Translations under genes and position numbers: made by a program
Shown here: positions 4,988-37,800 of the stretch, one piece after another
Position numbering within the stretch: position 1 is the first letter of the stretch
Layout of the letters: the number at the start of each line of letters is the position of its first letter
Source: Felis catus
Taxonomy: Eukaryota
Direction: 5' to 3'
Length of the DNA stretch: 64,000 bases
Assembly (NCBI RefSeq): GCF_018350175.1
Contig: NC_058368.1
Location: 87,794,001 to 87,858,000 of the forward strand
The notes under the pieces: generated by a model
What the model saw: only the letters and a program-made list of their open reading frames with translations
The model's database searches: none
Told to the model about the DNA's origin: nothing

Positions 4988-6300
4988 TGAACCACAGATT
5001 TTTAAGGTCCCCTTATTTATCATGACCCTGATCATAAGGTCATAATGAAAACCATGGCCACACATGTGTTAAGCATACATCCTGGGAGGATGTAACTTTA
5101 TTACTGCCCTCATTTCTTTCCAGTGAGAGTAGACATATTCTGCTGTGAATACATTTTGTACCCATGTGTAACCCTAATGTCTGTTTGCTCCAACTTCCCA
5201 TGCATGCCCCCAGATTGTCCTATTCGTTCACTCAAGCAAGAAAAATATTCCCACCTTGCAAAAACTCAGACCTAACAGTGCCTTCTTTTCCACGTTAGGG
5301 CTCTCTGGCACACCTGAGTTTCATCAGGTCGTTTTTCTGAAAAAGAAAACGAAGTAAAAGGTGGCTTCCAGCTTTGTTATATCCCCTTTGATTGAGCCAT
5401 CTGTGAAGGTCCATGTGGAGATGTGAACCCTGCTTACACGTATGAGTCCACCTAGGGAAGAATGAGCTTTATTTTTACTACATAACCTCCCCGATTTGAA
5501 TAATAGACGACTAAGTAGGTCCCAAGGGAAAATCTGTTTATAGGTGTCTACAGTAGGCCGACTGCAGCCCCTACCCTCACCCGCCCCTGCAGGACCTGTC
5601 ACAGGGCTAAAGGGACTTTGCAGCTGTCATTAAGGCTACAGATTGAAGATAAGGGGGTCATCCTGGATGTCCCCCATATAATCACAGGCGCCTTAAAGGC
5701 AGAGAGGAAGAAAGACGCCGCACGGAAGTTGGACAGATTGGAAACAGGAGGGGGATGTGACCCGCCCCTGCTGGGGGCACCTGGGTCACCAGAGCGGGAC
5801 TGTGGGCAGGGTGTGGGCGAAAAGAGCCCACACGCAGTCAGCTAGGAAAGGAAGCCTGGGGGCGATAATCCAGAGCCCCAGGGAGGAAAGCAAGGTTGCG
5901 GACACCTTGATGTGAGCCCCTGAGCCTCCACAGAGGACCCGGTTGAGCCTCGACCTCCACTGGCAGAACCGCAAAAGAATAACTAGGCTTTGTTTTAAGC
6001 TGCTATTTTGGGAGGTAATTTGATACGGCAGCAATAGGAAACCAATATGAAATATTTTTATTTTTATTTATTTTTATAAAGTCTATTTTCAAAGTAGCTG
6101 GGAAGGTTTGAGTAACAGAGAGGGTCTTGGAATTTACCGCAGAAAAAAAGCAGCCCCCTTGCAGCTAGTGAGCCTGGGGATCTGGGCGTTTCCATCCTTC
6201 TAACACCAGCCACATCTCGCCGTCACTCCCTCCCAGAGCAGAAATGCGTTTCCAGTGCAGATGGCGCTGGTCCTAGAAAAGGTGGATGGCACCCCGGTAC

Positions 6301-6434
6301 TATTTATATGGATTATATGCAAATGAGGAATTGGGCAAACGCAACATGTGATTGGATCAAAGAACATTTTTAAATAGCCAGAGGCAGTGCGGCTGTCTGA
6401 TTGGATAAAATTGCTGGGGATGTCAGCCAGTCAG
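6301..6434 (-). promoter_or_regulatory. Orphan H2B/H2A-type divergent histone promoter cassette
   Basis: On the minus strand: ATATAAATA (6301-6309), extended octamer CTCATTTGCAT (ATGCAAATGAG on +, 6317-6327) and three CCAAT boxes (ATTGG at 6330, 6351, 6400). On the plus strand: decayed CCAGTCAG at 6427-6434. No histone ORF is visible on either side. Confidence 0.6.
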
Positions 6435-11460: not shown

Positions 11461-13768
11461 ACATGTAATGCAGATTATGGTTTCAAATCCCACTGCAGGT
11501 GGGGAGGGTGCACAATAGGCAGCCCCCAATTCCATGTTTTGTGTATTTGTTCAGACACATGGAACCAGGTAACATTCTGCCTCATGTCCAGGGAATAGAC
11601 TCAAGTCCCCTGGGAATCTAGAAACATAAATCTAAAAACAGAACTGAGGCGACAGGGTGACTCAGTTGGTTGGGTGTCCGACTCTTGATTTTGACTCTAG
11701 TCATGATCGTGCGGTTTGTGGGTTCAAGCCCCATGTTGGCCTCTGTGCTGATAGCTCAGAGCCTGGAGCCTGCTTCAGATTCTGTGTCTGCCTCTCCCCC
11801 ACTCACACTCATTCTCTCTCTCAAAAATAAATAAACATTAAAAAAAAAAGTAAAAATAAAACTAAAGCTCTTGTGGTCAGAAGGCCTTAGACATGCACCC
11901 AAACACTCTCAAAGTGCCACCTGGGTTTCCATCCTCAGCCACGTAGACAGAGTTGATCCCCAAAGGGCTCCTTCCTGGGTGCTCCTGTGCAAGTCACAGC
12001 TGGTGCCAGAAATCCAGCATCCACCCACCATTGTCCCCTTTAGCCCTTGGGACACCCAGAGCTCTGGACTCTGTCTGCCCTGAAATAGGGACAGCTCTGG
12101 GAGATTAACCAACAAGTCCCTGTCAGACTGCGTCAGATCCACACCATACACACCAGGAGACCTTAGGTGTGTCCCTTAGTCCCTCTTCCTGGTGCTCAGC
12201 CAACCCAACCTGACTCAGGGATGGCAGTGGGGATTCTGTGTGACAATCATTATCAAATAAAAAAACACGCAGATTTAGTAAGGAGAGATTTTATCTGAAA
12301 GGATTATTACAAGGCAGGGGAAAGGACTATTAGGACAGGAAAAATTCTTTTTTCTTTTTTTTTCAACTTTATTTATTTTGAGAGAGAGAGAGATGCATGG
12401 GAGGAGCAGAGAGTGAGGGAGAGAGAGAGGAAAATTCTTGCCTCTACTCATTTTAGGACTTGGCAGGGACTCTGTAACCAAAGACAGATTAAAGGAAAGC
12501 TTTTAGGTTTTATTGTGACACAGGACCCTTCAAAAGGGAATGAAGACTTACAGAAGGGGCAAAGCCTAAATGCTTTTACACTGGGTTGAACAGAGGCAAC
12601 TGTGGGAAAGTAACTTAAATGCAAGGGGTGGGGGCGCCTGAGTGGCTCTGGCGGTTGAGTGTCCCACTCTTGATTTCGGCTCAGGTGGTGCTCTCAGTTT
12701 GTGGGTTCGAGCCCCGAGTGGGGCTGTGCGGTGATTGTGTGGAGCCTGCTTGGGATCCTCTCTCTCCCTCTGACCTTCCCCCTGCTCATGCTCTCCCTCT
12801 CAAACTGTAAAACAAAGAAAAAAAAAAAAAAAAAAAAGACGTGGGCACACCGAAGGAAGATCAGAATTACGTCAGTAAGGCCTGTGAGTGCGGGGTCCGG
12901 TGGGTAATGATACAAACGCTTCTTTCCTCCAGGTACAGGTCAGTCTTCACACACAGGAGAATTACCTCCTGTTTTCAGGAAAGAAAACAGAGGCATCCGA
13001 GCTGTCCTCTTACGCCTGCCGTTTTTCAAGTGCCTTTAGCTCAGAATAATCCTTGCAGGGAAGTTGCATTTGAGGATGGCACATCGGGGTGCCCAAGTGT
13101 CACTGGGGTGGGGCAATGGGGGATCTCTTTCCATAGGATGAAAGGAACACGACAGGGCAGCTGACAGGACAGTGGGTCAGGGAAGGTTTGCCCTGGGCCG
13201 ACGGGTTCCCAGGAGGGGCCAGGGATCAGCACACGGAGCAGCACGGACGCTTCACCACATCCGGGCAAATGGGCACCTTGTTTGGATCCACCTATGGAGA
13301 CAGGCAGTTCAGCCAACTGTCCCTGGGGGAAGGGAAGGACGGGGATGTGGACAAGTTGTGCCCCATGGTGTCACGGGTCAGCAAAGGGGCACCCCTGATT
13401 CGCGTCAGAGTCAGGCAGACACGAGGGGTGGGGGACCCCTTTAACTGCTGGCAGGGAAAATTATGTGGTCACCCCGGAAAAGCTGAACTCAGAATGCAGG
13501 CTTCTAGAAGGGTCTTCGGGTCCTGGAGCGTTCGGGAGCCAAGAGGAGTGTTGAGGGGGAAAGGAGGGAGCTGTGTGGGAGAGGCAACGCCCACAACGAC
13601 GCCCTTGGCGAGATGACCTGACCTTGACCCTTACCCTGACCCTAGCCCCTGGCCTGCAAGCGCAAGAACAAACACTCCGTGGAACCAGGAGATCCCCTTG
13701 CTACTAACAGTCTTGCCGCAGAGGTGCGGAGATAAAGGGGCAGGCGGCCAAGTGGAGCGTCCCGCGGG

Positions 13769-13838
13769 CCAATCAGAGCACATCTTACCATCACGCCACC
13801 AGCGGTCGGCCAATGGGAAGGCCGAGGCCTCTATAAAA
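13769..13838 (+). promoter_or_regulatory. Histone H3 promoter: two CCAAT boxes and TATA box
   Basis: CCAAT at 13769-13773 and 13810-13814; TATAAAA at 13832-13838, ~80 nt upstream of the ATG. Confidence 0.85.
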
Positions 13839-13918
13839 GCTGACACTGCTTTGGTTTTTGTTTTTGACGATTTCCTTAGAGACAAGTGGCTTCGGTTTTT
13901 TCTGTAACACTGCAAGCC

Positions 13919-14316
13919 ATGGCTCGCAGGAAGCAGACAGCGCGCAGGTCCACGGGCAGCAAGGCCCCGCACAAGCACCTGGCCACCAAAGTGGCCCGCA
14001 AGAGCTCGCCGGCTACCGGCGGCATCAAGAAGCCGCACCGCTACCGGCCTGGCACAGTGTCCGCCACTACCAGAAGTCCACCGAGCTGCTGATCCGCAAG
14101 CTGCCGTTCGAGCGGGAGGTGTGCGAGATCGCGCAGGACTTCAAGACCGATCTGCGCTTCCAGAGCTCGGCCGTCATGGCGTTGCAGGAGGCGTGTGAGG
14201 CCTACATGGTGGGGTTCTTCGAGGACACCAACCTGTGCGCCATCCACGCCAAGCGCGTTACCATCATGCCCAAGGACCTACAGTTGGCGCGCCGCATTCG
14301 CGGGGAGCGCGCTTAA
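13919..14316 (+). pseudogene. H3-4: Replication-dependent histone H3 gene (H3-4/HIST3H3/H3t orthologue) disrupted by a 13-nt deletion
   Basis: ATG 13919 reads [29 protein letters not shown]...RYRPGTV. The histone fold ([16 protein letters not shown]...RRIRGERA*) continues in another frame to TAA 14316. Length is 398 nt vs 411 nt for intact H3, so 13 nt are missing between 14059 and 14060 (A47-E50 plus first base of I51). It has SAVM 87-90 and C96 (H3.1 type) and V24 (H3t signature). Position next to TRIM17 matches H3-4 synteny. Confidence 0.92.
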
Positions 14317-14370
14317 GCGCCACGCGCATGTGTGGGCCGCCAAGCCCTGAGTCGTCGCTCTCCCCCTAAA

Positions 14371-14412
14371 GGCTCTTTTCAGAGCCACCACCAGTCCACA
14401 AAGGGTGCTGTG
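14371..14412 (+). terminator. Histone mRNA 3' stem-loop and U7 histone downstream element
   Basis: Consensus GGCTCTTTTCAGAGCC at 14371-14386, preceded by AAA and followed by ACCAC; purine-rich AAAGGGTGCTGTG at 14400-14412. Confidence 0.92.
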
Positions 14413-16429
14413 CCAATCGGGTTCTTTCTGGCTGGTTCCAGCTTCCTTAGCTTCCAGTTAGCTGGTTGTGTTCCCTAGGGTTCACGCGGGGGTTTAACCA
14501 AATGAAAACCCTAACAACCGGGGTGGTTACCCATAAGTCCAAGAGTGGAGTGGAGTGGAGAGGAGCCCACCAGAGTAGGGCTACCTAGAGAATGCGGTTG
14601 GAGGGCTTTTTCCCACTGGGTGCCAGCATGTTTGGTTTTATTTTAATGTTTTTTATTTAAATTTTTTTTAACGTTTATTATTGAGACAGCATGAGCAGGG
14701 GAGGGGCTTCAAGTCTTTAAGCTGTCAGCACAGAGCCTGATGAGGGGCTCGAACTCACCCGCGAGATCATGACCTGAGAGGAAGTCAGTTGCTTAACTGA
14801 ATGGGCCACCCAGGTTCCCCTAATGTTTATTTTTTGACCCAGAGTGTGAGTGGGGGAGGGGGAGGGTAGCAAAAAGGGGGGGCAGAAGATCCAAAGCGGG
14901 TTCTGTGCTGACAGCAGAGAGCCCAGTGTGGGGCTCGAACTCCCCAACCGAGAGATCATGACCTGATCTCCGCTGCCCAACCGACTGAGCCATCCAGGCA
15001 CCGCACAAGCATGTTCATAATTAAAATTTTAGATTGATAGAACTCTAGGGGCTCCTGGGTGGGTCAGGCAGTTAAATGTCCAACTGGGCTCAGGTCATGA
15101 TCTCACAGTTGGTGAGTTCGAGCCCCGCATCGAGTTCTGTGCTGACAGCTCAGAGCCTGGAGACTGCTTCAGATTCTGTGTCTCTGTCTGTCCCGTGCCC
15201 ACTCATGTACCGTCTCTTTCAAAACCAAACTTTAAAATAAAATTTGTTTTTAAAGTTGGTAAAACCCAGTCGCTGGCCAGTGCTGGTCACCTTCAGACGG
15301 CCAGCCTACACTTCCCAGGTCCTCCTAGCTGAGTGAAGGCTCAGACGGAGAAACACTTGGTGTGAACGTGTTTGCGTGACAGCCCAATGCTGTCTGTGTG
15401 CAAGGGTGAATTTTCAACCTCAGACCCAGTTTGTTATCCGTTAGATTTCATTCAAAAGCTTCAATGAAAGTAGCACATGCAGAAGTGTGTTTTGAATGTT
15501 GAGAAGAATCCTGAAGTTTTAGGATGTACACAAGCTTACAGTGTTCAGGGAAGCCCATGTTCTGGCTTGAAAATCAGTGCTAACCTTTAATGCTAGGCTC
15601 CTTCTAAGTAGATCCAAGTCTGGCCACTGTGTCTTTACTGTGCTCACAAGTCCCTTTTCTTGGCAAGGGTTTTTCCAATGCGGGAGAGCTAACCCTCCAT
15701 GCCCTTCCCCACATTACCATATGACCTGGGGCTGGGCAACTAGCTACATCTGGGGAAACCCAGATGATGGGAAACCATGCAGATGATGTGTCCTTGGCAG
15801 GATAGGCTACAAATCATGATGGAAGACCATGGGGTGGGGGAGCGGGGCAGGTCCACATCATTCTGTTCTGTTCCAGAACAGACTCTGAAAGAGCATGTTC
15901 TGCCCGAGGACCAGAGGTGAGGAGCAAAGAAAAACAAAGAAGTGATGATAAAGGAAGAAGGTAACTGACATCCCTCACAGTCATATAAATGGATAGTGAA
16001 GGAAGCCTTTCCCACACACTTATCTGAACCTGTGGTTGTGTCCCTGCAGCAGGGGTGGGGGGGGTGGGGGGGGTGGGGGGGGTGGGAGGGGTTGGGGGGG
16101 TGCGAGTTGGGGAGAGTGGCGGCGGTTCCTCATTGAGCAAACCCTCTGCACAAAACCACCCTCGGGAGATCTGATCTGGGCAGAGCCACTGCCAAGGGAG
16201 ACACAGCCTCCTTGCTCTCCAGAGAACGTTCTGGCACCCTCGAAGCATGGCAGGGCACAAGAGAGAGGACCACGGGAAAAGTGGGAAAGGGAGACAGCAC
16301 AGGGGCAGGACGTGCCAGGAGTTGCCTCACTTGTGGTGTAGCTGGGATCCGTCAGCAAACACATATATATGCACATCGAGAGAGTGCTGTCATCTGAAGT
16401 GCACAATTGCATGAATATTTGTTTCAAAG

Positions 16430-26460: not shown

Positions 26461-26940
26461 CTGTAGCAGACACAGCTTCCAGGATGGTTACAGCCTGGGA
26501 CCAGACGGGTGAACTGGTTTTGCCCCTTTACAGAAAAGCATTCTCGGACGGAGGGTGGCCTGTCCATCCTCACTGACCTGGGGCCCTTGGGGGTGTTGCC
26601 TCCATCCTGAGCCAGACCCCCAGCCCACCAGCTTGCCCCGCTGGCCCGCGTTTCTGTTGGGTGGGCAGCAGTGCCCCTTAGGGTGGAGAGAGCAGAGGGA
26701 CACCCTGACCTCACAGTGTCTGCAGAGACAGCTCCAGATAAATTGAACCAGGGTCTGGGACGTGGGAGGCCTGAGGCATCCAGCCGTGCTCACTGCAGAT
26801 GACTGCAGAGAAAGGAGCTGGGATAGTAAAGTCCAGAAATGATGTTCCAATCCCCTAACAGGGCTCGAATAACACCCTGCGACCTGCAGAGGGGGCTTTG
26901 GACCTCCCTGGCATAGGGTCAGGGGTACAGCCACACCCAG

Positions 26941-28020
26941 TGTGACCATGTGTGTGCATGTGTGTATGTGTGTGCTCTCATGTGTGCATGCATGTATGCA
27001 TGTACGTGTGTGCGTGTGTGACTGTGTGTGCATGTATGTGTGTGCTTGTGAGACTATGTGTGCGAGTGTGTATGCGTGTGCTCTCATGTGTGTGCATGTA
27101 TATCTGTGCGTGTGCTCTCGTGTGTGTGTGCATGTGTGTGCGTGTATGTGCTCTCGTATGTACGTACATGTGTGCATGTATGTGTGTGGCCGTATGTGGT
27201 TGTGCTGTCGTGTGTGCATGCATATTTGCATGTATGTGTGCATGTATGTGTGTGCATGAGTGACCGTGTGTGTGCATATACGTGTGTGCGTGCATGTGTA
27301 TTTGTGTGCATGTGTGCACTGTGTGTGCATATGTATGCTCTCGTGTGTGTGCACATATGTCTTGCGTGTGTGACCATGTGTGTGCGTGTGTGACCGTGTG
27401 TGTATGTGTGTGTTCTCATGTGTGTGCATGTGTGTATTTGTGTGTGTGCTTGTGAGACTGTATGTGGGCATGTGTGTGCATGCGTGTGTATGTCTCTGTG
27501 TGTGCATGTGTGCATCTGCGCGCATGTACATGTGTGTTTGTGTGCGTGTGTGTGCATGCATGTGTGCGCATGTGTGCGTACATGTGTATTTGTGCGCGTT
27601 TGTGTGTGCATGTGTGCTGTGTGTTCTGTGCATGTGTGCACACGTGTGTGCATATATGTTCTCTGAACATCTGTGCTCTCGTGTATGTGTGCATATGTGC
27701 GCATGTGCGTGTGTGCTCTCATGTATGTGCAAGAGTGTGCATGTGTTTGCATTGCGTGTGTATGTGCATGTCTGCTTGTGTGCGCATGTGCATGTGTCTA
27801 TGTGTGTGCACGTGTGTATGTGTGTTCATTTGTGCACATATGTGTGCAAGCATGCATGTGTGTGTATTTGTGTGTATGTGTATACATGTGTGCGTGTGTG
27901 TGTGTTCTGTGCATGTGTATGTGTGTATATGTGCACGTGTGTGCATGGGTGCGCTCTCGTGTGTGTGCATATGTGCACGTGTGTGTTTGCTCTTGTGTGT
28001 GTGCATGTCTGTGCATGCAC
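26941..28020 (+). repeat. ~1.08 kb degenerate (TG)n/(TGCA)n alternating purine-pyrimidine array
   Basis: Continuous TGTG/TGCATG/TGTA sequence with recurring breaks (gctctc, tgacc, tgagact). Confidence 0.95.
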
Positions 28021-28454
28021 TCACGCACACCAGGTGTCTTTTCTGCACTGCACCATGTGGCAGAACACCAGAGCTGACGCGTAGTCAGGACAGTAAAAAC
28101 AGACTTTGTTCAGGATTACTGTAATATAGGGGATGAGAGGTCCCAGCAAAGAACTGGCTCAACTCAGTATAGGGTGGACCAGAAGCGGGTCAGGGGAAGT
28201 GAGGGTTAGTGATGAAAAATCTCTGAGAGGGAGATTCTTGCCAAACTGGCCGAACAGGATTCTTGCTGTAGACAGGTCAGTGGGAGGTGAGGAGCCAGAT
28301 CAGACATCATGTGGGGGGTGGGGGGTTGGGGGGACGCTCTAATGCAACCTAGCAAGATCCCCCCTACAGTGGGTGGGGCCGGCCACAGACAAGGGTTTGG
28401 TGTGGAGAGGATCAAGGAGCATGTAAGGGACACTCCACTCCCTGCCCAGGAAGC

Positions 28455-28883
28455 ATGGATGCCTTGGAACTTGCCAGAAAGCTGCAGGAGGAGGCCACGT
28501 GCTCCATCTGCCTTGACTACTTCACGGACCCGGTGATGACCTCCTGCGGCCACAACTTCTGCCGCGAGTGCATCCGGCTGGCCTGGGAGAAGGCCAAAGG
28601 CAGGAAAGGGGGGAGGAAGCGGAAGGGCTCCTTCCCATGTCCCGAGTGCCGGGAGCTATCCCCCCAAAGGAACTTGCGGCCCAACCGCCTGCTGACCAAA
28701 GTGGCCGAGATGGCGCGGCAGCACCCGGGCTTCCAGAGCAGGGACCTGTGCACAGAGCACCAGGAGTTGCTGAAGCTCTTCTGTGAGGACGACCAGATCC
28801 CCATCTGTGTCGTCTGCAAGGAGGCCCGGGAACACAGGACCCACAGGGTGGTCCCGGTCGAGGAGGCCGTGCAAGAGTACAAG
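28455..28883 (+). CDS. TRIM17: TRIM17 coding exon 1 (RING + B-box2)
   Basis: Acceptor cccag ends at 28449, ATG 28455, C3HC4 RING, donor AAG|gtgggt. Confidence 0.95.
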
Positions 28884-31800
28884 GTGGGTCACAGGGACGT
28901 CCTGGTGCACATGTAGTAGGCAGGACAAGAGCCCCCATAATGCACAGCCCAAACGTCCACAAAGCTGGTGGCCTGGAGTCCACACTATTGGAGGCCCTGC
29001 CCCAGGTCCATGCAGTTAGGGCTCCAGCACCATGGGCTGATAGCCCTCATCCTGGTTCCCTGTCCTCGCTGGGCGGGGAGCTCTGTGGGGTCTGTTGTAT
29101 GATCACACTAATCCCATTCCTGGGGGCGCCACCCTCGTGACCTGATTGCCCCCCAGGAGCCCCACCTCCTCACTCCGCGCTGGGGGTTCGTATTCAGCAT
29201 GTGGGCTTGGAGACATGTGCCAAGCACAGCAGAAAGCAAATATAGGGAAACTCACAGAAGAGAAGGGTTGCTAGTGCACATGCATCGGGGCACCAGCTCG
29301 CCACCTTCCTGTAGGGCCATAAACCTTCCTGGGATGAGACCCCTGGCCCTCCTCTTCTTCTGACCTTTACTCAGTTAAGGGGAGCCCCGGGAAGGTCTAT
29401 TTCTGCAGTGCTGATCCTTGATTGGCTCCAGCTCATAATAACCCTCCTGCCCAAGGCACATGTCTCGGGTGCCATGTGTTCTTCCCCAGGACCCCCTCAC
29501 GTCCTTCTCTGGGGTGGGGGCACTGGGCAGATGTCAGGGCATAAGGGCCTCTGACCCCACACTCTGCGGTCCATGTGTCTCACAGCTGAAGCTGCAGGCC
29601 GACATGGGGCACCTTCGGGAGGAGATGATGAAGACTGGGAGGCTGCAGGCCAGGGAGAGACAGACCTTGGCTGAGTGGCAGGCAGGTGCCCAGGGACGGG
29701 GTGCACACACAGGAGCCCAGTGGGTTCGGACAGGCCACACAAGAGCTGTGTGGATGCGAACACATACCCGGAGCTCAGGATTCCCGCTAGAATCAGGATC
29801 CAGAACACAAGCCCAGCCCAGGCCGGCTGCCTTGGAGGTGCAGGGACCTTGGGTGCCGCTGCTTGGGGCTCAGCAGGTGACCCCCACAGAGGGGCTCCCT
29901 CCCCTGCTAGGCTAGCTTCTTCTCTGTGGGTCACCAGGACCCTGGGGGGTTACAGCGTCCTGGGAGCTGCCCTCCCATCTGGCTGGCGGGGAAAGGGAGT
30001 GGATACGGGTCCGGGATCCCTCACACCCGCAATCCCCCCTCCCCCACCGCTGGCTCCTGCAGGAGAAGGTGAAGGAGCAGAGGCGGCGCATCCTGGTGGA
30101 GTTTGAGAAGGTGGGCCTCTTCCTCCTGGAGGAGGAACAGCGCCTGCTCCAGGCCCTGAAGACTGAGGATGAGGAGGTGGGAGCCAGGCTGCGGGAGAGC
30201 TCTGCCGCCCTGGAGCGGCAGGGCCACTCCCTGGAGATGCTGCTGCTCCAGCTGGAGGACAAGAACCAGCACAGCCCACTGCAGATGTTGCAGGTGAGGG
30301 GGCGCCCTGCTCTCTGGGGGGAGGAGAGTCCTCAGTACACCTGCTCCCTAGGGGTGTGGCGAGTCCTCAGTGCACCTGCTCCCTGGGAGGGAGTCCCCAG
30401 TACACCTGCTCCCTGGGGAGTGGGGGAGAGTCCTCAGTACACCTGCTCACCTGGGGGAGGGGAGACCCCAGGACCCCTGCTCACTTGGGGGGGGGGAGAC
30501 CTCAGGACCCCTGCTCACCTGGGGAGGAGGGGAGACCTCAGCAACCCTGCTCACCTGGGGGAGTGGAGACTTCAGCACCCCTGCTCCCTGGGGGGAGGGG
30601 AGTCCCCAGGACACCTGATCCTGGGGGAGGGGAGACCTCAGCACCACTGCTCATATTGGGGGGTGGGGAGACCTCAATACAGCTGCTCATCTGGGGGGGA
30701 GGGGAGACCTAGCACCCCTGCTCACCTGGGGGAGGGGAGACCTCAGTACACCTGCTCACCTGGGGGGGGGGGGTAGGTGAGACCTCAGCACCCCTGCTCA
30801 CCTATCTGGGTGGGGGGGACTCATGCCCAGGTGTGGTCAGGTGGTGACTACAGTAACTAGTACACACAGGGGAAGGCTGTCTCAGCTCAGACTGCCTCAC
30901 AAAGACAACAGGAGGTGGTTCACACAGTGGACTGTGTCTCCTGGTTCTGGAGGCAGGAAGTCTGGGATCCAGGCACAGGCAGGGCTGGTTACTCCCCAGG
31001 CCTCTCTCCCTGACGTATACGTGGCCATCTTCTCCCTGAGTCCTCGCAGGGTCATCCCTCTCTGCCTGTCTGTGTCCTAAACTCCTTTTCTTGCAAGGAC
31101 ACCAGTGTTAGGGAATTAGGGTCCAACCCTAGTGACCTCACTTTACCGTAAATCGGCTCTTTAAAGACCCAATCACCAATACAGTCCCCCTCTGAGGTCC
31201 TGCGGGCTGGGGCTCCAGTGTGTGAATCTGAAGCCCAGTCAGCCCATTACAGGCTCTCGTCCTACAGATGTGTGTCCCCTCCCTTCCTAGCCCAGGGAGG
31301 TGGCCTGGGGGCGGCTGTCATTAGTGAGGTGATGTGGGGCACAGACACACTGGCCCAGATAGACACCCATGACTTCACAGGCAGGAGGGAGTCATGTGAT
31401 TGCACCCCAGGATGGCAGTCACGAGAGGCCACAGCTGGCCTTCCAAGGACAGACCGGCCCACCGAGGCCCTGAAAGCAGGGGGTTATGTTGGCCAACAAG
31501 TGGGTGATTCACCAACTATGTGGAGGGACGGAATCCACGGCGACAGATAAGATTGCACACACTCCTGTGTGCATGTTTCCACAAGAGAAGCAAATGCCAC
31601 ATGCAGGGAATCCATGCATCCATCCCGTTTGCCTGGCTCAGGCCCAGGTTTTTTTCTGTTGTCCTGACCTCTGTGGGTTTTGTCCCCAGGAAGGGGCCTG
31701 TTCTAGATGACAAGTTATGTGGTAGCTCAGGCTACGTAGCTCAGAGGAACGTTTTGTCTTCTATTAAAAAGCAACCTATCTACAAACTAACATGTGGACC

Positions 31801-33121
31801 TTTTTGTCACTCACAGTGATGCTGAACTACAAAAGGCACATTGATGGTCACCTGCCCTGTGCCCCCAATTCCACCCATGGGTTCACTGGCACAGCTTCCA
31901 TGTCCCCAGGCATTATGTGGGGAGAACAGGAGGCCTGGCCAGGCCAGTGCATAGGATTCCTGTGTGCAGCCAAGACCGGGTTACGCTCTGGAAAGTGGGC
32001 ACAGGGCTGTGGGAAAACATCTTAGCCTTTCTAGCACTACAGACCAGAAATGCAGGCACAACGCCCCAGATTCCTCACGAGGCTTTGCCAATCTCCCTCC
32101 TTCTGTGTCTTGCAGGACATGAAGGAGCTCCTGAGCAGGTACGTGGCCAGCTGCAGGGGAGGCACTGATGGGCGCAGGGAGGGCTCCCCGTGGGATCAGA
32201 GGGGACAATGACCCTGTGTCCACTGGAGGAGGAACAGCCTGAGTGTACAGTACCCAGAGGCCACCCCAACTGTGCTGAGGACAGTCTGCAGGGTCCCTGG
32301 GCAGATAGAGGTGCTGAAGAGTTTCCAAGGTAAGCAGGAGCCCAGCCGGGGGGACTGTCCTTTATGGGACATTCACACTCTGTGCCCTTTCTCTTCCTAT
32401 GGGGACACACGGTGAGGTGCCCAAATGGCCCCCCAGCTCCCAGCACCTTAGCACCACCAATATGGACAGTTGGGGGAGGGACCCCAGTGGCCCAGGTGTA
32501 CAGCTGGACTCAGCCCTGGAGCCTGGTTAGGGAGAGCACGTTTGATTCGCTGCCCCCTTCCCTCCATATGCAGAGGATGTGGTGCCGGACCCCGCCACCG
32601 CCTACCCCTACCTCCTCTTGTACGAGAGCTGCCAGAGGCGCTACCTGAGCACGCCACTGGAGGGCGCGCTCCACAGCAAGGACAGGTTCCTGGCCTACCC
32701 CTGCGCCGTGGGCCGGGAGACCTTCTCCTCGGGCAGGCACTATTGGGAGGTGGGCATGAACCTCACCGGTGACGCTCTCTGGGCCCTGGGCGTGTGCAGG
32801 GACAATGTGAGCCGGAGGGACAGGGTCCCCAAGTGCCCCGAAAATGGGTTCTGGGTGGTGCAGCTGTGCAAAGGGAAGAAGTACACACCCAGCACATCTG
32901 CCCCAACCCCTGTCACGCTGGCCGAGCCCCCCAGCCACATGGGGGTCTTCCTGGACTTCGAAGCGGGGGAGGTGTCCTTCTACAACCTGAAGGACGGGTC
33001 CCACATGCACACCTACGCCCAGCTGCAATTCTCCGGCCCCCTGAAGCCCTTCTTCTGCCTGGGGGCCCCCAAATCAGGCCAGATGGTCATCTCTACAGTG
33101 ACGCTGTGGGTGAAGGGATAG
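28455..33121 (+). CDS. TRIM17: E3 ubiquitin ligase TRIM17 (RING-Bbox2-coiled coil-PRY/SPRY), 475 aa, complete
   Basis: Coding exons 28455-28883, 29586-29681, 30063-30293, 32116-32138, 32229-32329, 32574-33121 (429+96+231+23+101+548 = 1428 nt, in frame). Starts [23 protein letters not shown], has the basic RING insert, ends ...[10 protein letters not shown]. The 96/231/23-nt exon pattern is typical of class IV TRIMs. Confidence 0.95.
29586..29681 (+). CDS. TRIM17: TRIM17 coding exon 2 (coiled coil, 96 nt, GC donor)
   Basis: cacag|CTGAAG...TGGCAG|gcaggt; [32 protein letters not shown]. Confidence 0.9.
30063..30293 (+). CDS. TRIM17: TRIM17 coding exon 3 (coiled coil, 231 nt)
   Basis: tgcag|GAGAAG...TTGCAG|gtgagg; [16 protein letters not shown]...PLQMLQ. 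Confidence 0.93.
30304..30822 (+). repeat. G-rich minisatellite, ~34-bp unit x ~15
   Basis: Unit approx CTGCTCACCTGGGGGAGGGGAGACCTCAGCACCC; ctgctc core recurs about every 30-37 nt. Confidence 0.92.
32116..32138 (+). CDS. TRIM17: TRIM17 coding exon 4 (23 nt)
   Basis: tgcag|GACATGAAGGAGCTCCTGAGCAG|gtacgt. Confidence 0.9.
32229..32329 (+). CDS. TRIM17: TRIM17 coding exon 5 (101 nt linker)
   Basis: [33 protein letters not shown]; donor AAG|gtaagc; acceptor is an atypical gag; same size as TRIM11 exon 5. Confidence 0.85.
32574..33121 (+). CDS. TRIM17: TRIM17 coding exon 6 (PRY/SPRY, B30.2)
   Basis: tgcag|AGGATGTG; motifs [33 protein letters not shown] 33119-33121. Confidence 0.95.
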
Positions 33122-33699: not shown

Positions 33700-34850
33700 C
33701 CCCGCCCCCGCAGTTTCAGGCGCATTAACCGCCCTACGCCAGGCCGGGCACCCAGAATCCCAGTCGGTGTATGTCTACCTTAAGGCCAGAGTGCCTACAG
33801 GCCGAGCCCCTTCCTGCACTGATCCTGATCGTGCCCGGCGCAGGGGCGCACGGGAGACGGCTTGGGGCTCGCCGCCGCGGCCTCAGGCTCCCCTTGTCCT
33901 CGAAGTCGCTGTGCTGTGCGGGGAACCCAGTGAACGTGTGAGGCGCCCGCCGGCCCGGGTCCTGCAACCGGTCCTTCCCGGGACGCCAGGGATAGGTGAC
34001 CCACAGCCTGGAGCGCACGCGCGCGCGCGCGCAGACAGCGGAGGCTACGCCACAAGGTCAGCTGGCATGCAGCCTCCAATTCGGTTGGGCCCGCGGGCCG
34101 CGTGGCCGGCCTCAGCCAATCCGGAGCTAAAGCGGGTTGTTCCAAAAAAAAAAAAAAAAAAAAAAAACCAGCTGCTTCCTGCTTCCGCCGCGGCGCCTCT
34201 TCCTTCGCGCGTCCCTGGAGCCCCCGCGTCTCCGAGTGCTACCCGGAGTCTCGGTGACGGAGGCCACACCGCCCCAGCCGGCGGAAAGCGCCGCCCATCT
34301 CCGCCCGACCGGCGCCATGGCCGCCCCCGACCTGTCCACCAACCTCCAGGAGGAGGCCACCTGCGCCATCTGCCTTGACTACTTCACCGACCCCGTGATG
34401 ACCGACTGTGGCCACAACTTCTGCCGCGAGTGCATCCGGCGCTGCTGGGGCCAGCCCGAAGGCCCGTACGCCTGCCCCGAGTGCCGCGAGCTGTCCCCGC
34501 AGAGGAACCTGCGGCCCAATCGCCCGCTCGCCAAGATGGCCGAGATGGCGCGGCGCCTGCACCCGCCGTCGCCCGTCCCGCAGGGCGTGTGCGCCGCGCA
34601 CCGCGAGCCTCTGGCTGCCTTCTGCGGCGACGAGCTGCGCCTGCTGTGCGCCGCCTGCGAGCGCTCGGGGGAGCACTGGACGCACCGCGTGCGCCCGCTG
34701 CAGGACGCGGCCGACGACCTCAAGGTGCGCGGCGGGGCCCGGCTGGAGTCGGGGCCCGGGGGTGGTGGCTCGGCCCGGGCGGGATCCCGGGGGTGGTGTG
34801 CTCCTGGCTCGGGTGCAGGGAGTGCACGCAGCCGGCTTCACACAGCACCC
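33700..34850 (+). promoter_or_regulatory. TRIM11 CpG island promoter
   Basis: Dense CpG; CCAAT at 34076 and 34116; NRF1-like GCGCACGCGC at 34013; tandem ETS-like CTTCC at ~34175-34186. Confidence 0.8.
34317..34724 (+). CDS. TRIM11: TRIM11 coding exon 1 (RING + B-box2)
   Basis: ATG 34317; donor AAG|gtgcgc. Confidence 0.95.
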
Positions 34851-37800
34851 TCTGGTTGTCGGGGTTACCCTGGCCCGGGTTCTAAGGAGCATGGGATGTG
34901 AGTGCAGCAAGCCCACACCAGCATCCTCCTGGCTGGGGGTGCACCCTGGCCGGGTTGTAGGGGTGCGCGTGCAACGGAGACTGGTACCCTCTTGGGGGGG
35001 GGGGGTGTGTGCAGCCAGTCCCAGACCGGTACCATCCTGGCTGGGGTTTAGGGGAAACAGGGTCTGAGTGCAGCAAGCCTACACCAGCACCCTTCTGGCC
35101 AGCGAGTAGGGGACACAGGGTACCTGTACAGCCGGTCTAGGCTGGCACCTTCCTGGCCAGGGTCTAAGGACGAGGCACAGGGTGTGTGTGCAGTCTGTCC
35201 CAGACCTACTGGCTAGGACACCATTCACCAGTGGGGCACCGGCCTGAAAATCAGGAATGGAGCCCAGAGAAGGAGAAAGCAGGAAGAGAACCTTAGGTTT
35301 CTTCGTAGACAGAAGTGGGCTCAGCCCTCAGAGGGCCATGGGCGAGGCAGGGCTGTGGGGTGGAGATGAGATTTGAGGAATCACTGGGTTGGGATGGGTG
35401 GGGACACAGCCGTTGCCCTGGGAGGCAGGTGCCAGGGTCCCCGCAGCCCGTCAAGCTTTCCGAGTGGGATGCTTGGAGCCACTTGTGCCACCTGACATGG
35501 CAAGATCCACCCGCTTTGTTCTGGAAACACATTTCTTCAAAATCCAGGCCAGCCCTCACCCGACTGCTGAGAACTCAGGGCAGATACCCATGTGCGGTCC
35601 TCACTGGGCCTCAGGAGTGTTTGCTCCTGGAGCCCCAGGTATTGACTACACGGCTGACACCTTGCCAACGTTTGGATTGGTGTGCGTTGTGCTTCATGGC
35701 CCAGAGCGTCTGCTGGCTTGCTCCAAGGACATGGCGTAGCCACGTGAACCAGTACTTGGCCAGTTTGTCACTGTTCTAGAACCAACAGGACAAACTTGGA
35801 TCCTGATCTGCATCTGTGGGCTCATCCTGACGGAGACCCCTGAAGTCTTGCCTTCCACTTTGAGGCACAACACGCGGATGCCCCACCCCTTTTGTCGGTC
35901 CAGCAAATGTGCTCTGCCACTGAGCAGAAAGTGACCATGCCGCTCTCCAGAGGCCCCTCTCGGTTGGCCTGATAATGCCTCTTGGGGCAGCACTTAAACC
36001 CCTTCCTATCGTAGGGGAGGGCAAAGCTTTATGTCCAACTTGTTAGGTTCAGTGACTGAGGCTTGCAAATTAAGCTAACAAAGGCAGAGTAACAAGTGAA
36101 AAAAAAACATAATTTTATTAGTCTTTAAAGAAAAATTTTTTTTAGGGGCGCCTGGGTGGCTCAGTCGGTTAAGCATCCAACTTCAGCTCAGGTCATGATC
36201 TCACAGTTGGTGAGTTCAAGCCCCATGTCGGGCTCTGTGCTGACTGCTCAGAGCCTGGAGCCTGCTTCGGATTCTGTGTCTCCCTCTCTCTCTGACTCTC
36301 CCCTGCTCATGCTCTGTCTTTCTCTGTCTCAAAAATAAATTAAACATTAAAAAAAAATTTTTTTAATTTTTTTAATGTTTTATTTATTTTTGAGAAAGAG
36401 ACAGGGTGAGCAGAGGAGGGGCAGAGAGAGAGGGAGACACAGATTCCAAAGTAGGCTCCAGGCTCTGAGCTGTCAGCATGGAGCCCAATGCAGGGCTCAA
36501 ACTCGTGAACCTTGAGATCATGACCTGAGCTGAAGTATGACGCTTAACCGACTGAGCCACCCAGGGGCCCCATAATTTTATCAGTCTTTTAAATGTTCTA
36601 TGGCACAAGAGTTTCACAGAGGCAAAATGAAAAACCCTTTTAGATATGGGATTATGTTCTATTTTAACAAAGGGTGATGATAAACTGGGGAGAAGTGGCT
36701 AGGCAAAAGAAAGGGAATTAGGGCTTGTAGGGTCAGTAAGTTGTGGGAAAGGAACTAGGGAATATATGGGGGAACAAGTGATAGGTCAGGGTTATCTGAG
36801 TCGTAAAGTCCCTTCAGGCACAGTCCTGTCTGACAGACATTGTGATGAGTGCCGTCCCCTTCTGGGTACAGACAGGGAGGGCACCCTTGTGGGAAATTTC
36901 TGCTCTCCCTTGAGGCAGAAAGGAGGAGGGCAGAGGGCTTTTCTTACATCTCCAGAGAGTCCTTGTGCCAAAGTGGCTCCCTCTGGGCTGGCACTTTCTG
37001 ACCTCCTTCCCTGTACTAGCAGGTAGCTACCCTTCATGCTAGGGGTGCGCAGCACACCATCTTTACCTGCCCCCAAAGGGCTGTGCCTGGCATTTGCACA
37101 CCCTGGGGTGCTGGGTCCCCCAAAGCGCCACCTCCCCGGGCCTCAGTCCATCTAAAAGTTGGAGGGAGAGCGCAGTCAGGTGGAGAGGTGTGGGGCCTGC
37201 AGGGAGCCCAGAGCAGGCCTGGAGAAGGAAAGGGGACTGAGTCAGGGGAGGGCAAGGGGCCTCGGTGCTGGGGGGGAGGGGACTCGTAGGTTAATTTGAG
37301 GCTGTCCCATGTGTCATGCCTGGCCGGGTTGACTGGAACGGGGATGGGGCCCACCCAGCCAGGGTCACACTGGCCTTACCTTCCCGTAGGGTAAGCTGGA
37401 GAAGTCCCTAGAGCATCTGCGGAAGCAAATGGAGGACGCGCTGCTGTTCCAGGCCCAGGCCGAGGAGACCTGTGCCTTGTGGCAGGCAGGTGCCCCGAGG
37501 TGCCCAAGGTCGGGGGGTGGGGGTGGCAGGCAAGCGGGCGCCTGCCTCATGCTGTGTATGAGGAAGGCTCCCTGCGTGTAACCCGCCCAGGAGGGTGAGG
37601 CTGGGGACTGGACAGGACGTGGGGGCCCCAGGTGGGGGATGGATGAGGTCCCTGGGCCCTCAGCTGCCCTGTTCACCCTGCAGAAGATGGTGGAGAGCCA
37701 GCGGCAGAACGTGCTGGCGGAGTTTGAGAGGCTGCGCCGGCTGCTGGCAGAGGAGGAGCAGCGGCTGCTGCAGAGGCTGGAGGAGGAGGAGCTGGAGGTC

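What the first reader, a model, noticed from the sequence alone, without database searches (positions are those of the whole stretch)
13919..14316. Testis histone H3-4 (H3t) orthologue appears pseudogenised in this felid
Seen: a 13-nt frameshifting deletion at 14059/14060 plus many changes at near-invariant residues (T3R, K9R, G13S, R17H, Q19H, A29S, V35I, R53H, Q68E, L70E, R72C, L100M, L103F, I124L). That load argues for real decay rather than one sequencing error. V24 and synteny with TRIM17 point to H3-4. Known: the mouse orthologue H3t is required for spermatogenesis. Inference: this lineage lost or replaced a germline histone variant that is essential in rodents.
Basis: partly seen in the sequence, partly recalled or inferred. 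Interest (0 to 1): 0.7.

Follow-up and report, generated by a model that had tools for sequence, protein, structure and literature searches.

The report
Cats' broken testis histone H3.4 gene
The cat copy of the testis histone gene H3-4 is broken by a 13-base deletion that lions, tigers, leopards and lynx share, a real but already published loss that cats likely tolerate by using ordinary H3 histones in sperm-forming cells.

Summary
Window 13919-14316 (+) is an H3 gene lacking 13 bases after 14059. The frame shifts after Val46 and stops at 14090-14092 (57 codons, no histone fold). All 14 listed substitutions plus A24V are present. Position (H2A/H2B pair upstream, two TRIM genes downstream), V24, C96 and a stem-loop fit H3-4. 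No intact V24-type H3 was found among 40 loci examined in this genome. It is already published: Komarov et al. (Nat Commun 2026, PMC13396413; preprint June 2025) report this deletion in Felidae. Their table lists it in 5 of 5 felids, with meerkat intact and separate losses in dogs, fox, sea lion and gorilla. Their cat sequence matches the window by eye. They also show that mice making H3.1 from both copies of this locus have normal testes, so the gene is needed mainly for H3 supply, which ordinary H3 genes likely cover in cats. My only addition, read by eye: 9 of the 14 substitutions are shared by all five felids, so decay began well before the Panthera-Felinae split. I have no read-level confirmation of my own. 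Real, known, low interest.

The parts
13769..13773 (+). CCAAT box, first of two
   Evidence: motif scan
13810..13814 (+). CCAAT box, second of two
   Evidence: motif scan
13832..13838 (+). TATA box, 87 bases before the ATG
13919..14316 (+). H3-4 (H3.4/H3t) pseudogene body, original ATG to original TAA, 398 nt, no intron
   Evidence: alignment to intact paralogues; matches the published cat H3-4 pseudogene row by eye
13919..14092 (+). Residual reading frame: 57 codons (Met, 46 H3 tail residues, 10 out-of-frame residues) and premature TGA at 14090-14092
13991..13993 (+). Val24 codon (GTG), the mark of H3.4
   Evidence: only exact match of the V24 pattern in the genome
14059..14060 (+). Junction of the 13-nt deletion (CDS 142-154; removes A47-E50 and the first base of I51)
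   Evidence: same positions listed for cat, leopard, tiger, lion, lynx
14371..14386 (+). Histone 3' stem-loop, identical to that of 13 of 14 clustered H3 paralogues
14400..14412 (+). Purine-rich stretch at the place of the histone downstream element (consensus recalled; function untested)
   Evidence: side-by-side print with paralogues
28455..28916 (+). Synteny anchor: first coding exon of a RING/B-box TRIM gene (TRIM17 by published gene order)
   Evidence: Pfam RING and B-box; order H3-4> TRIM17> TRIM11> for cat
34317..34901 (+). Synteny anchor: first coding exon of a second RING/B-box TRIM gene (TRIM11 by published gene order)

Best explanation
This is the cat's only H3-4 (H3.4/H3t) gene, broken by a 13-base frameshift deletion shared by five felid species and likely decaying without selection since before big and small cats split. 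Shown: the deletion, the premature stop before the histone fold, 14 further substitutions, the HIST3 position, and no intact V24 copy among the loci examined. Inferred: any product would be a tail-only peptide that cannot enter a nucleosome. Inferred: spermatogonia of cats fill replicating chromatin with H3.1/H3.2 from the 13 intact clustered genes, so the loss cost little. This rests on mouse genetics, where H3 supply from the locus is essential and the V24 sequence only adds efficiency. Whether the deletion came first or followed relaxed selection is not known.
For: Deletion, stop and substitutions. dN/dS 0.29-0.31 against H3.1 genes, 0.013-0.014 between H3.1 and H3.2. Same deletion in 5 of 5 felid rows, meerkat row intact. 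By eye, cat and lynx differ by 8 replacement and 2 silent bases, cat and lion by 9 and 6; published dN/dS is 0.024 for coding H3-4 and 0.46 for H3-4 pseudogenes. Ten intact H3.1 and three intact H3.2 genes, all A24. Mice homozygous for H3.1 at the H3f4 locus have unchanged testis weight, nulls lose 80% of it. Independent losses in other carnivores and gorilla.
Against: No expression or protein data from cat testis were examined, so compensation by H3.1/H3.2 is untested. Promoter motifs, stem-loop and CpG richness (observed/expected 0.88 over 13700-14400) persist, so the locus may still be transcribed. The 2022 nomenclature table lists cat H3-4 without the pseudogene suffix. Genome searches score only the best candidates, so the paralogue census is a lower bound.
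Confidence: 0.93

Rival explanations
1. The deletion is a sequencing or assembly error in this genome and the gene is intact.
For: None. I have no read-level confirmation of my own.
Against: Identical deletion positions in cat, leopard, tiger, lion and lynx assemblies. An error would not explain 14 substitutions, 9 of them shared by all five species.
Confidence: 0.005
2. This is a dead duplicate, and an intact H3-4 paralogue elsewhere does the job.
For: One other H3-like locus has Val24 (L038). Genome searches give lower bounds.
Against: L038 has a stop and gaps, Ser31, and is 84% like H3.3 exons and 67% like the window, so it is an H3.3 retrocopy. The V24 DNA pattern has 1 exact match, the window; the 4 non-clustered one-mismatch matches that keep a Val codon gave no H3 hit. 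No second H3 lies in the window or the 70 kb before it. The published survey found no V24 paralogue outside HIST3.
Confidence: 0.02
3. The locus is still transcribed in germ cells and its 56-residue tail-only peptide, or its RNA, has a role of its own, for example as a decoy for H3-tail readers.
For: Two CCAAT boxes, TATA box and stem-loop are intact. The ATG is kept in 5 of 5 felid rows. A single-exon message would escape junction-dependent decay (established knowledge, recalled).
Against: Eight of the 15 changes lie in the retained 47 codons and hit T3, K9 and R17. Lineages differ there: K9R and G13S in cat only, K14E in Panthera, R26C in lynx (by eye). Short motifs can survive this much drift by chance (inference).
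Confidence: 0.04

Closest known systems
Felidae H3-4 pseudogene of Komarov et al. 2026 (PMC13396413; Ensembl ENSFCAG00000046137 in their Supplementary Data 1)
   Same: Same gene, same deletion (nucleotides 142-154), same length (398 nt), same order H3-4> TRIM17> TRIM11>. The listed cat sequence matches the window letter for letter by eye.
   Different: Nothing in the sequence. In the sections I read the paper does not sort the substitutions by branch or date the loss.
Functional eutherian H3.4 / H3t (human H3-4, mouse H3f4, meerkat, bears, mustelids)
   Same: HIST3 position, V24, C96, single exon, 3' stem-loop.
   Different: Functional copies keep a 136-codon frame with dN/dS 0.024. This copy is frameshifted and carries 14 further changes.
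Other H3-4 losses: dog and dingo (25-nt deletion), red fox, California sea lion, polar bear, gorilla, New World monkeys
   Same: In-place loss of the single H3-4 gene in fertile species.
   Different: Different lesions, so independent events. The polar bear row rests on one assembly and looks like a local duplication (by eye).

Membership tests
H3-4 orthologue (HIST3 cluster) | [quoted passage not shown] | tested here: met
   Two RING/B-box TRIM first exons downstream on the same strand. Intact H2A and H2B about 22 kb upstream and a broken second H2B about 28 kb upstream. The names TRIM17/TRIM11 come from the published cat row.
H3-4 orthologue (HIST3 cluster) | Valine at position 24 | tested here: met
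   GTG at codon 24; all 14 clustered paralogues have Ala.
H3-4 orthologue (HIST3 cluster) | Cysteine at position 96 | tested here: met
   TGT at codon 96; stated for all eutherian orthologues.
H3-4 orthologue (HIST3 cluster) | Intronless gene ending in a histone stem-loop | tested here: met
   Collinear with intronless H3.1; stem-loop at 14371-14386.
H3-4 orthologue (HIST3 cluster) | Groups with H3-4 orthologues in a gene tree | not tested
   No tree built here. The paper states that the pseudogenes cluster with coding H3-4; I did not see the figure.
Functional H3.4 protein | Open 136-codon frame with a complete histone fold | tested here: not met
   Frameshift after V46, stop after 57 codons.
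Functional H3.4 protein | Strong purifying selection | tested here: not met
   dN/dS 0.29-0.31 against H3.1 genes, a proxy diluted by the long period when the gene worked; published 0.024 for coding copies.
Functional H3.4 protein | Expression in spermatogonia | not tested
   No testis RNA or protein data examined.
Unitary pseudogene | Disabled in place, with no working copy elsewhere in the genome | tested here: met
   V24 seen in 2 of 40 loci examined: the window and a broken H3.3 retrocopy. The census is a lower bound.
Processed H3.3 retrocopy (considered) | H3.3 residues (S31, A87, I89, G90) and a dispersed site without stem-loop | tested here: not met
   A31, S87, V89, M90, stem-loop and HIST3 synteny.

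The most novel reading that the evidence does not exclude
The broken gene is not silent. With its promoter boxes and stem-loop intact it is still switched on in cat spermatogonia and makes a 56-residue H3 tail peptide carrying V24 and K27, which acts as a decoy or modulator for H3-tail readers such as PHF1/PHF19. Cats would then have turned a histone variant into a tail-only regulator.
Probability: 0.04. Interest if true: 0.65.

Novelty: already known. Interest (0 to 1): 0.13.

Why it matters
As biology it is a good case: a gene whose deletion sterilises male mice has been lost several times in fertile mammals, which makes cats a natural test of how spermatogonia obtain H3 without H3.4. As a discovery it adds almost nothing, because the same deletion, its spread across Felidae and that reading were published in 2025-2026. 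What remains open and testable is which H3 genes cat spermatogonia use, and when on the felid stem the gene died.

Tried and rejected
Sequencing runs: 16 of 24 listed runs hold half or more of the sampled words of 13600-14600, at best 0.97. No lay was obtained, so I do not count them as evidence for the junction or for expression; the RNA holders are gut or mammal metatranscriptomes that may hold the stretch as DNA. Hidden V24 paralogue: DNA search (32 matches, 30 fetched), protein search with the first 47 codons (31 matches) and a V24 pattern (20 matches, 1 exact) gave none intact; two weak DNA matches were not fetched. Retrocopy origin rejected on residues, stem-loop and synteny. Pfam found no family in the first 47 codons, as expected for a tail alone. 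A link to poor sperm quality in cats: one paper search listed 5 papers whose titles and abstract openings do not bear on H3.4; not pursued, no claim made. Earlier findings of this scan: 0 by words, 0 nearby. I did not run protein-database or structure searches, as the identity was settled.

Full report
Observation. Window 13919-14316 (+) starts with ATG and ends with TAA but is 398 nt, 13 short of an H3 frame. Against intact H3.1 and H3.2 genes fetched from the same genome, the gap falls after base 14059, at CDS 142-154, in 3 of 3 alignments. It removes A47-E50 and one base of I51 and has no microhomology at its ends. The frame then reads 10 foreign residues and stops at 14090-14092, so the product would be 57 codons with no histone fold. 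dN/dS is 0.29-0.31 against the 10 intact H3.1 genes and 0.16-0.17 against the 3 H3.2 genes, while H3.1 against H3.2 gives 0.013-0.014. The excess of replacements is significant (Fisher p = 2.7e-4). Nine of 30 bases private to this copy are CpG-type transitions.

Identity. Two RING/B-box TRIM first exons lie downstream on the same strand, at 28455 and 34317, with a SPRY exon at 32756 and a kinase fragment near 62 kb. An intact divergent H2A/H2B pair lies about 22 kb upstream and a broken second H2B about 28 kb upstream. This is the HIST3 layout as described by Komarov et al.. V24, C96, no intron and a canonical stem-loop at 14371-14386 complete the match to H3-4. Two CCAAT boxes and a TATA box remain in the promoter.

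No replacement copy. I examined 40 loci: 30 of 32 DNA matches, 6 further protein matches and 4 pattern matches. Thirteen are intact clustered H3 genes and two are H3.3 genes, all with A24. V24 appears in the window and in L038 only. L038 has a stop, gaps and S31 and is 84% like H3.3 exons but 67% like the window, so it is an H3.3 retrocopy with a chance change. The V24 pattern has one exact match in 2.43 Gb, the window. These searches give lower bounds.

Already in print. Komarov et al., Nat Commun 2026 (PMC13396413): I read the abstract, sections 6, 8 and 15, part 1 of 2 of the Discussion, search passages, part 1 of 8 of Supplementary Data 1 and all 20 of its Carnivora rows. I could not see the figures or the supplementary figure PDF (too large), which holds their alignment and tree and may already sort or date the changes. 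The Discussion states a 13-nt frameshifting truncation of H3-4 in Felidae and a 25-nt one in Canidae, seen in several independent assemblies. The June 2025 preprint (10.1101/2025.06.19.660366; passages only) says the same. The table lists 'Truncation (nucleotides 142-154)' for cat, leopard, tiger, lion and lynx, and an intact gene for meerkat. The cat row matches the window letter for letter by eye. Of 20 Carnivora rows, 14 are labelled pseudogene and 6 coding; six of the 14 are dog breeds and dingo. The 2022 nomenclature paper (PMC9526256; passages and supplement rows) lists cat H3-4 without the pseudogene suffix, so some databases may still treat it as coding.

What I add, by eye. Nine of the 14 changes (T3R, Q19H, A29S, V35I, R53H, R72C, L100M, L103F, I124L) and the deletion are in all five felids and not in meerkat. 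R17H and L70E are shared by cat and lynx. K9R, G13S and Q68E are in cat alone. Cat and lynx differ by 8 replacement and 2 silent bases, cat and lion by 9 and 6. The tiger row has a run of N and was left out of these counts. A crude clock on replacements gives a stem-to-crown ratio of 1.6 (95% range 0.67-3.9). With a crown age of 11 million years (recalled) this puts the start of decay at 18-54 million years. The meerkat split caps it at 29.7-27.0 million years (PMC7886153, passages). Against an early date, about 8 silent changes also map to the stem by eye, which would mean constraint held over a good part of it. So the loss lies somewhere on the felid stem, and its date is loose.

How it most likely works. 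Shown in mice: deleting H3f4 cuts testis weight by 80% and removes sperm; expressing H3.1 from both alleles leaves testis weight unchanged; H3.1 from a single allele cuts it by a further 30% or more relative to heterozygotes, but males still breed. The locus is thus needed mainly as a source of replication-coupled H3 in spermatogonia, and V24 adds efficiency. Inferred for cats: H3.1/H3.2 genes supplied enough H3 in an ancestor, selection on H3-4 lapsed, and the gene decayed. The authors draw the same inference. I did not test it. The order of deletion and relaxation is unknown.

Rivals. Assembly error is excluded by five assemblies, although I have no read-level check of my own. A hidden intact paralogue is unlikely. 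A transcribed locus making a tail-only peptide is not excluded, since promoter boxes, ATG and stem-loop persist, but the retained tail carries 8 of the 15 changes and differs between lineages.

Verdict. It is a member of the H3-4 family by orthology and not a functional H3.4. Novelty: already known. Interest 0.13.

Noticed in passing
L032, about 6010-6330 (G000:C1 about 87,780,000-87,780,330), + strand: The second H2B gene of the HIST3 cluster is broken too: several deletions against the intact neighbour and a changed stem-loop. The 2022 nomenclature table names cat H2BC27P a pseudogene, so this is known.
   Followed up: yes
L031, about 870-1950 (G000:C1 87,784,870-87,785,955): Intact divergent H2B (126 aa, - strand) and H2A (130 aa, + strand) genes with canonical stem-loops, the H2BC26/H2AC25 pair by position.
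   Followed up: yes
L012:1499-1909: A clustered H3.1-type gene in the large histone cluster lacks its start codon and has R134P; stem-loop kept. Probably a young pseudogene; an assembly error is not excluded.
   Followed up: partly
L016:1484-1804, - strand: Partial H3 copy in the large cluster with a gap, altered ends and no stem-loop match.
   Followed up: partly
L038:291-695: Decayed H3.3-type retrocopy that has Val24 by chance; it could mislead a search for V24.
   Followed up: yes
window 26900-28100: Long GT-rich simple-sequence array just before the first TRIM exon; it yields spurious His/Thr and Cys/Val frames.
   Followed up: no
published table, polar bear row: The polar bear 'frameshift insertion' looks by eye like a V24 stretch joined to an A24 stretch, which could be a mis-assembly; two black bears are intact.
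   Followed up: no
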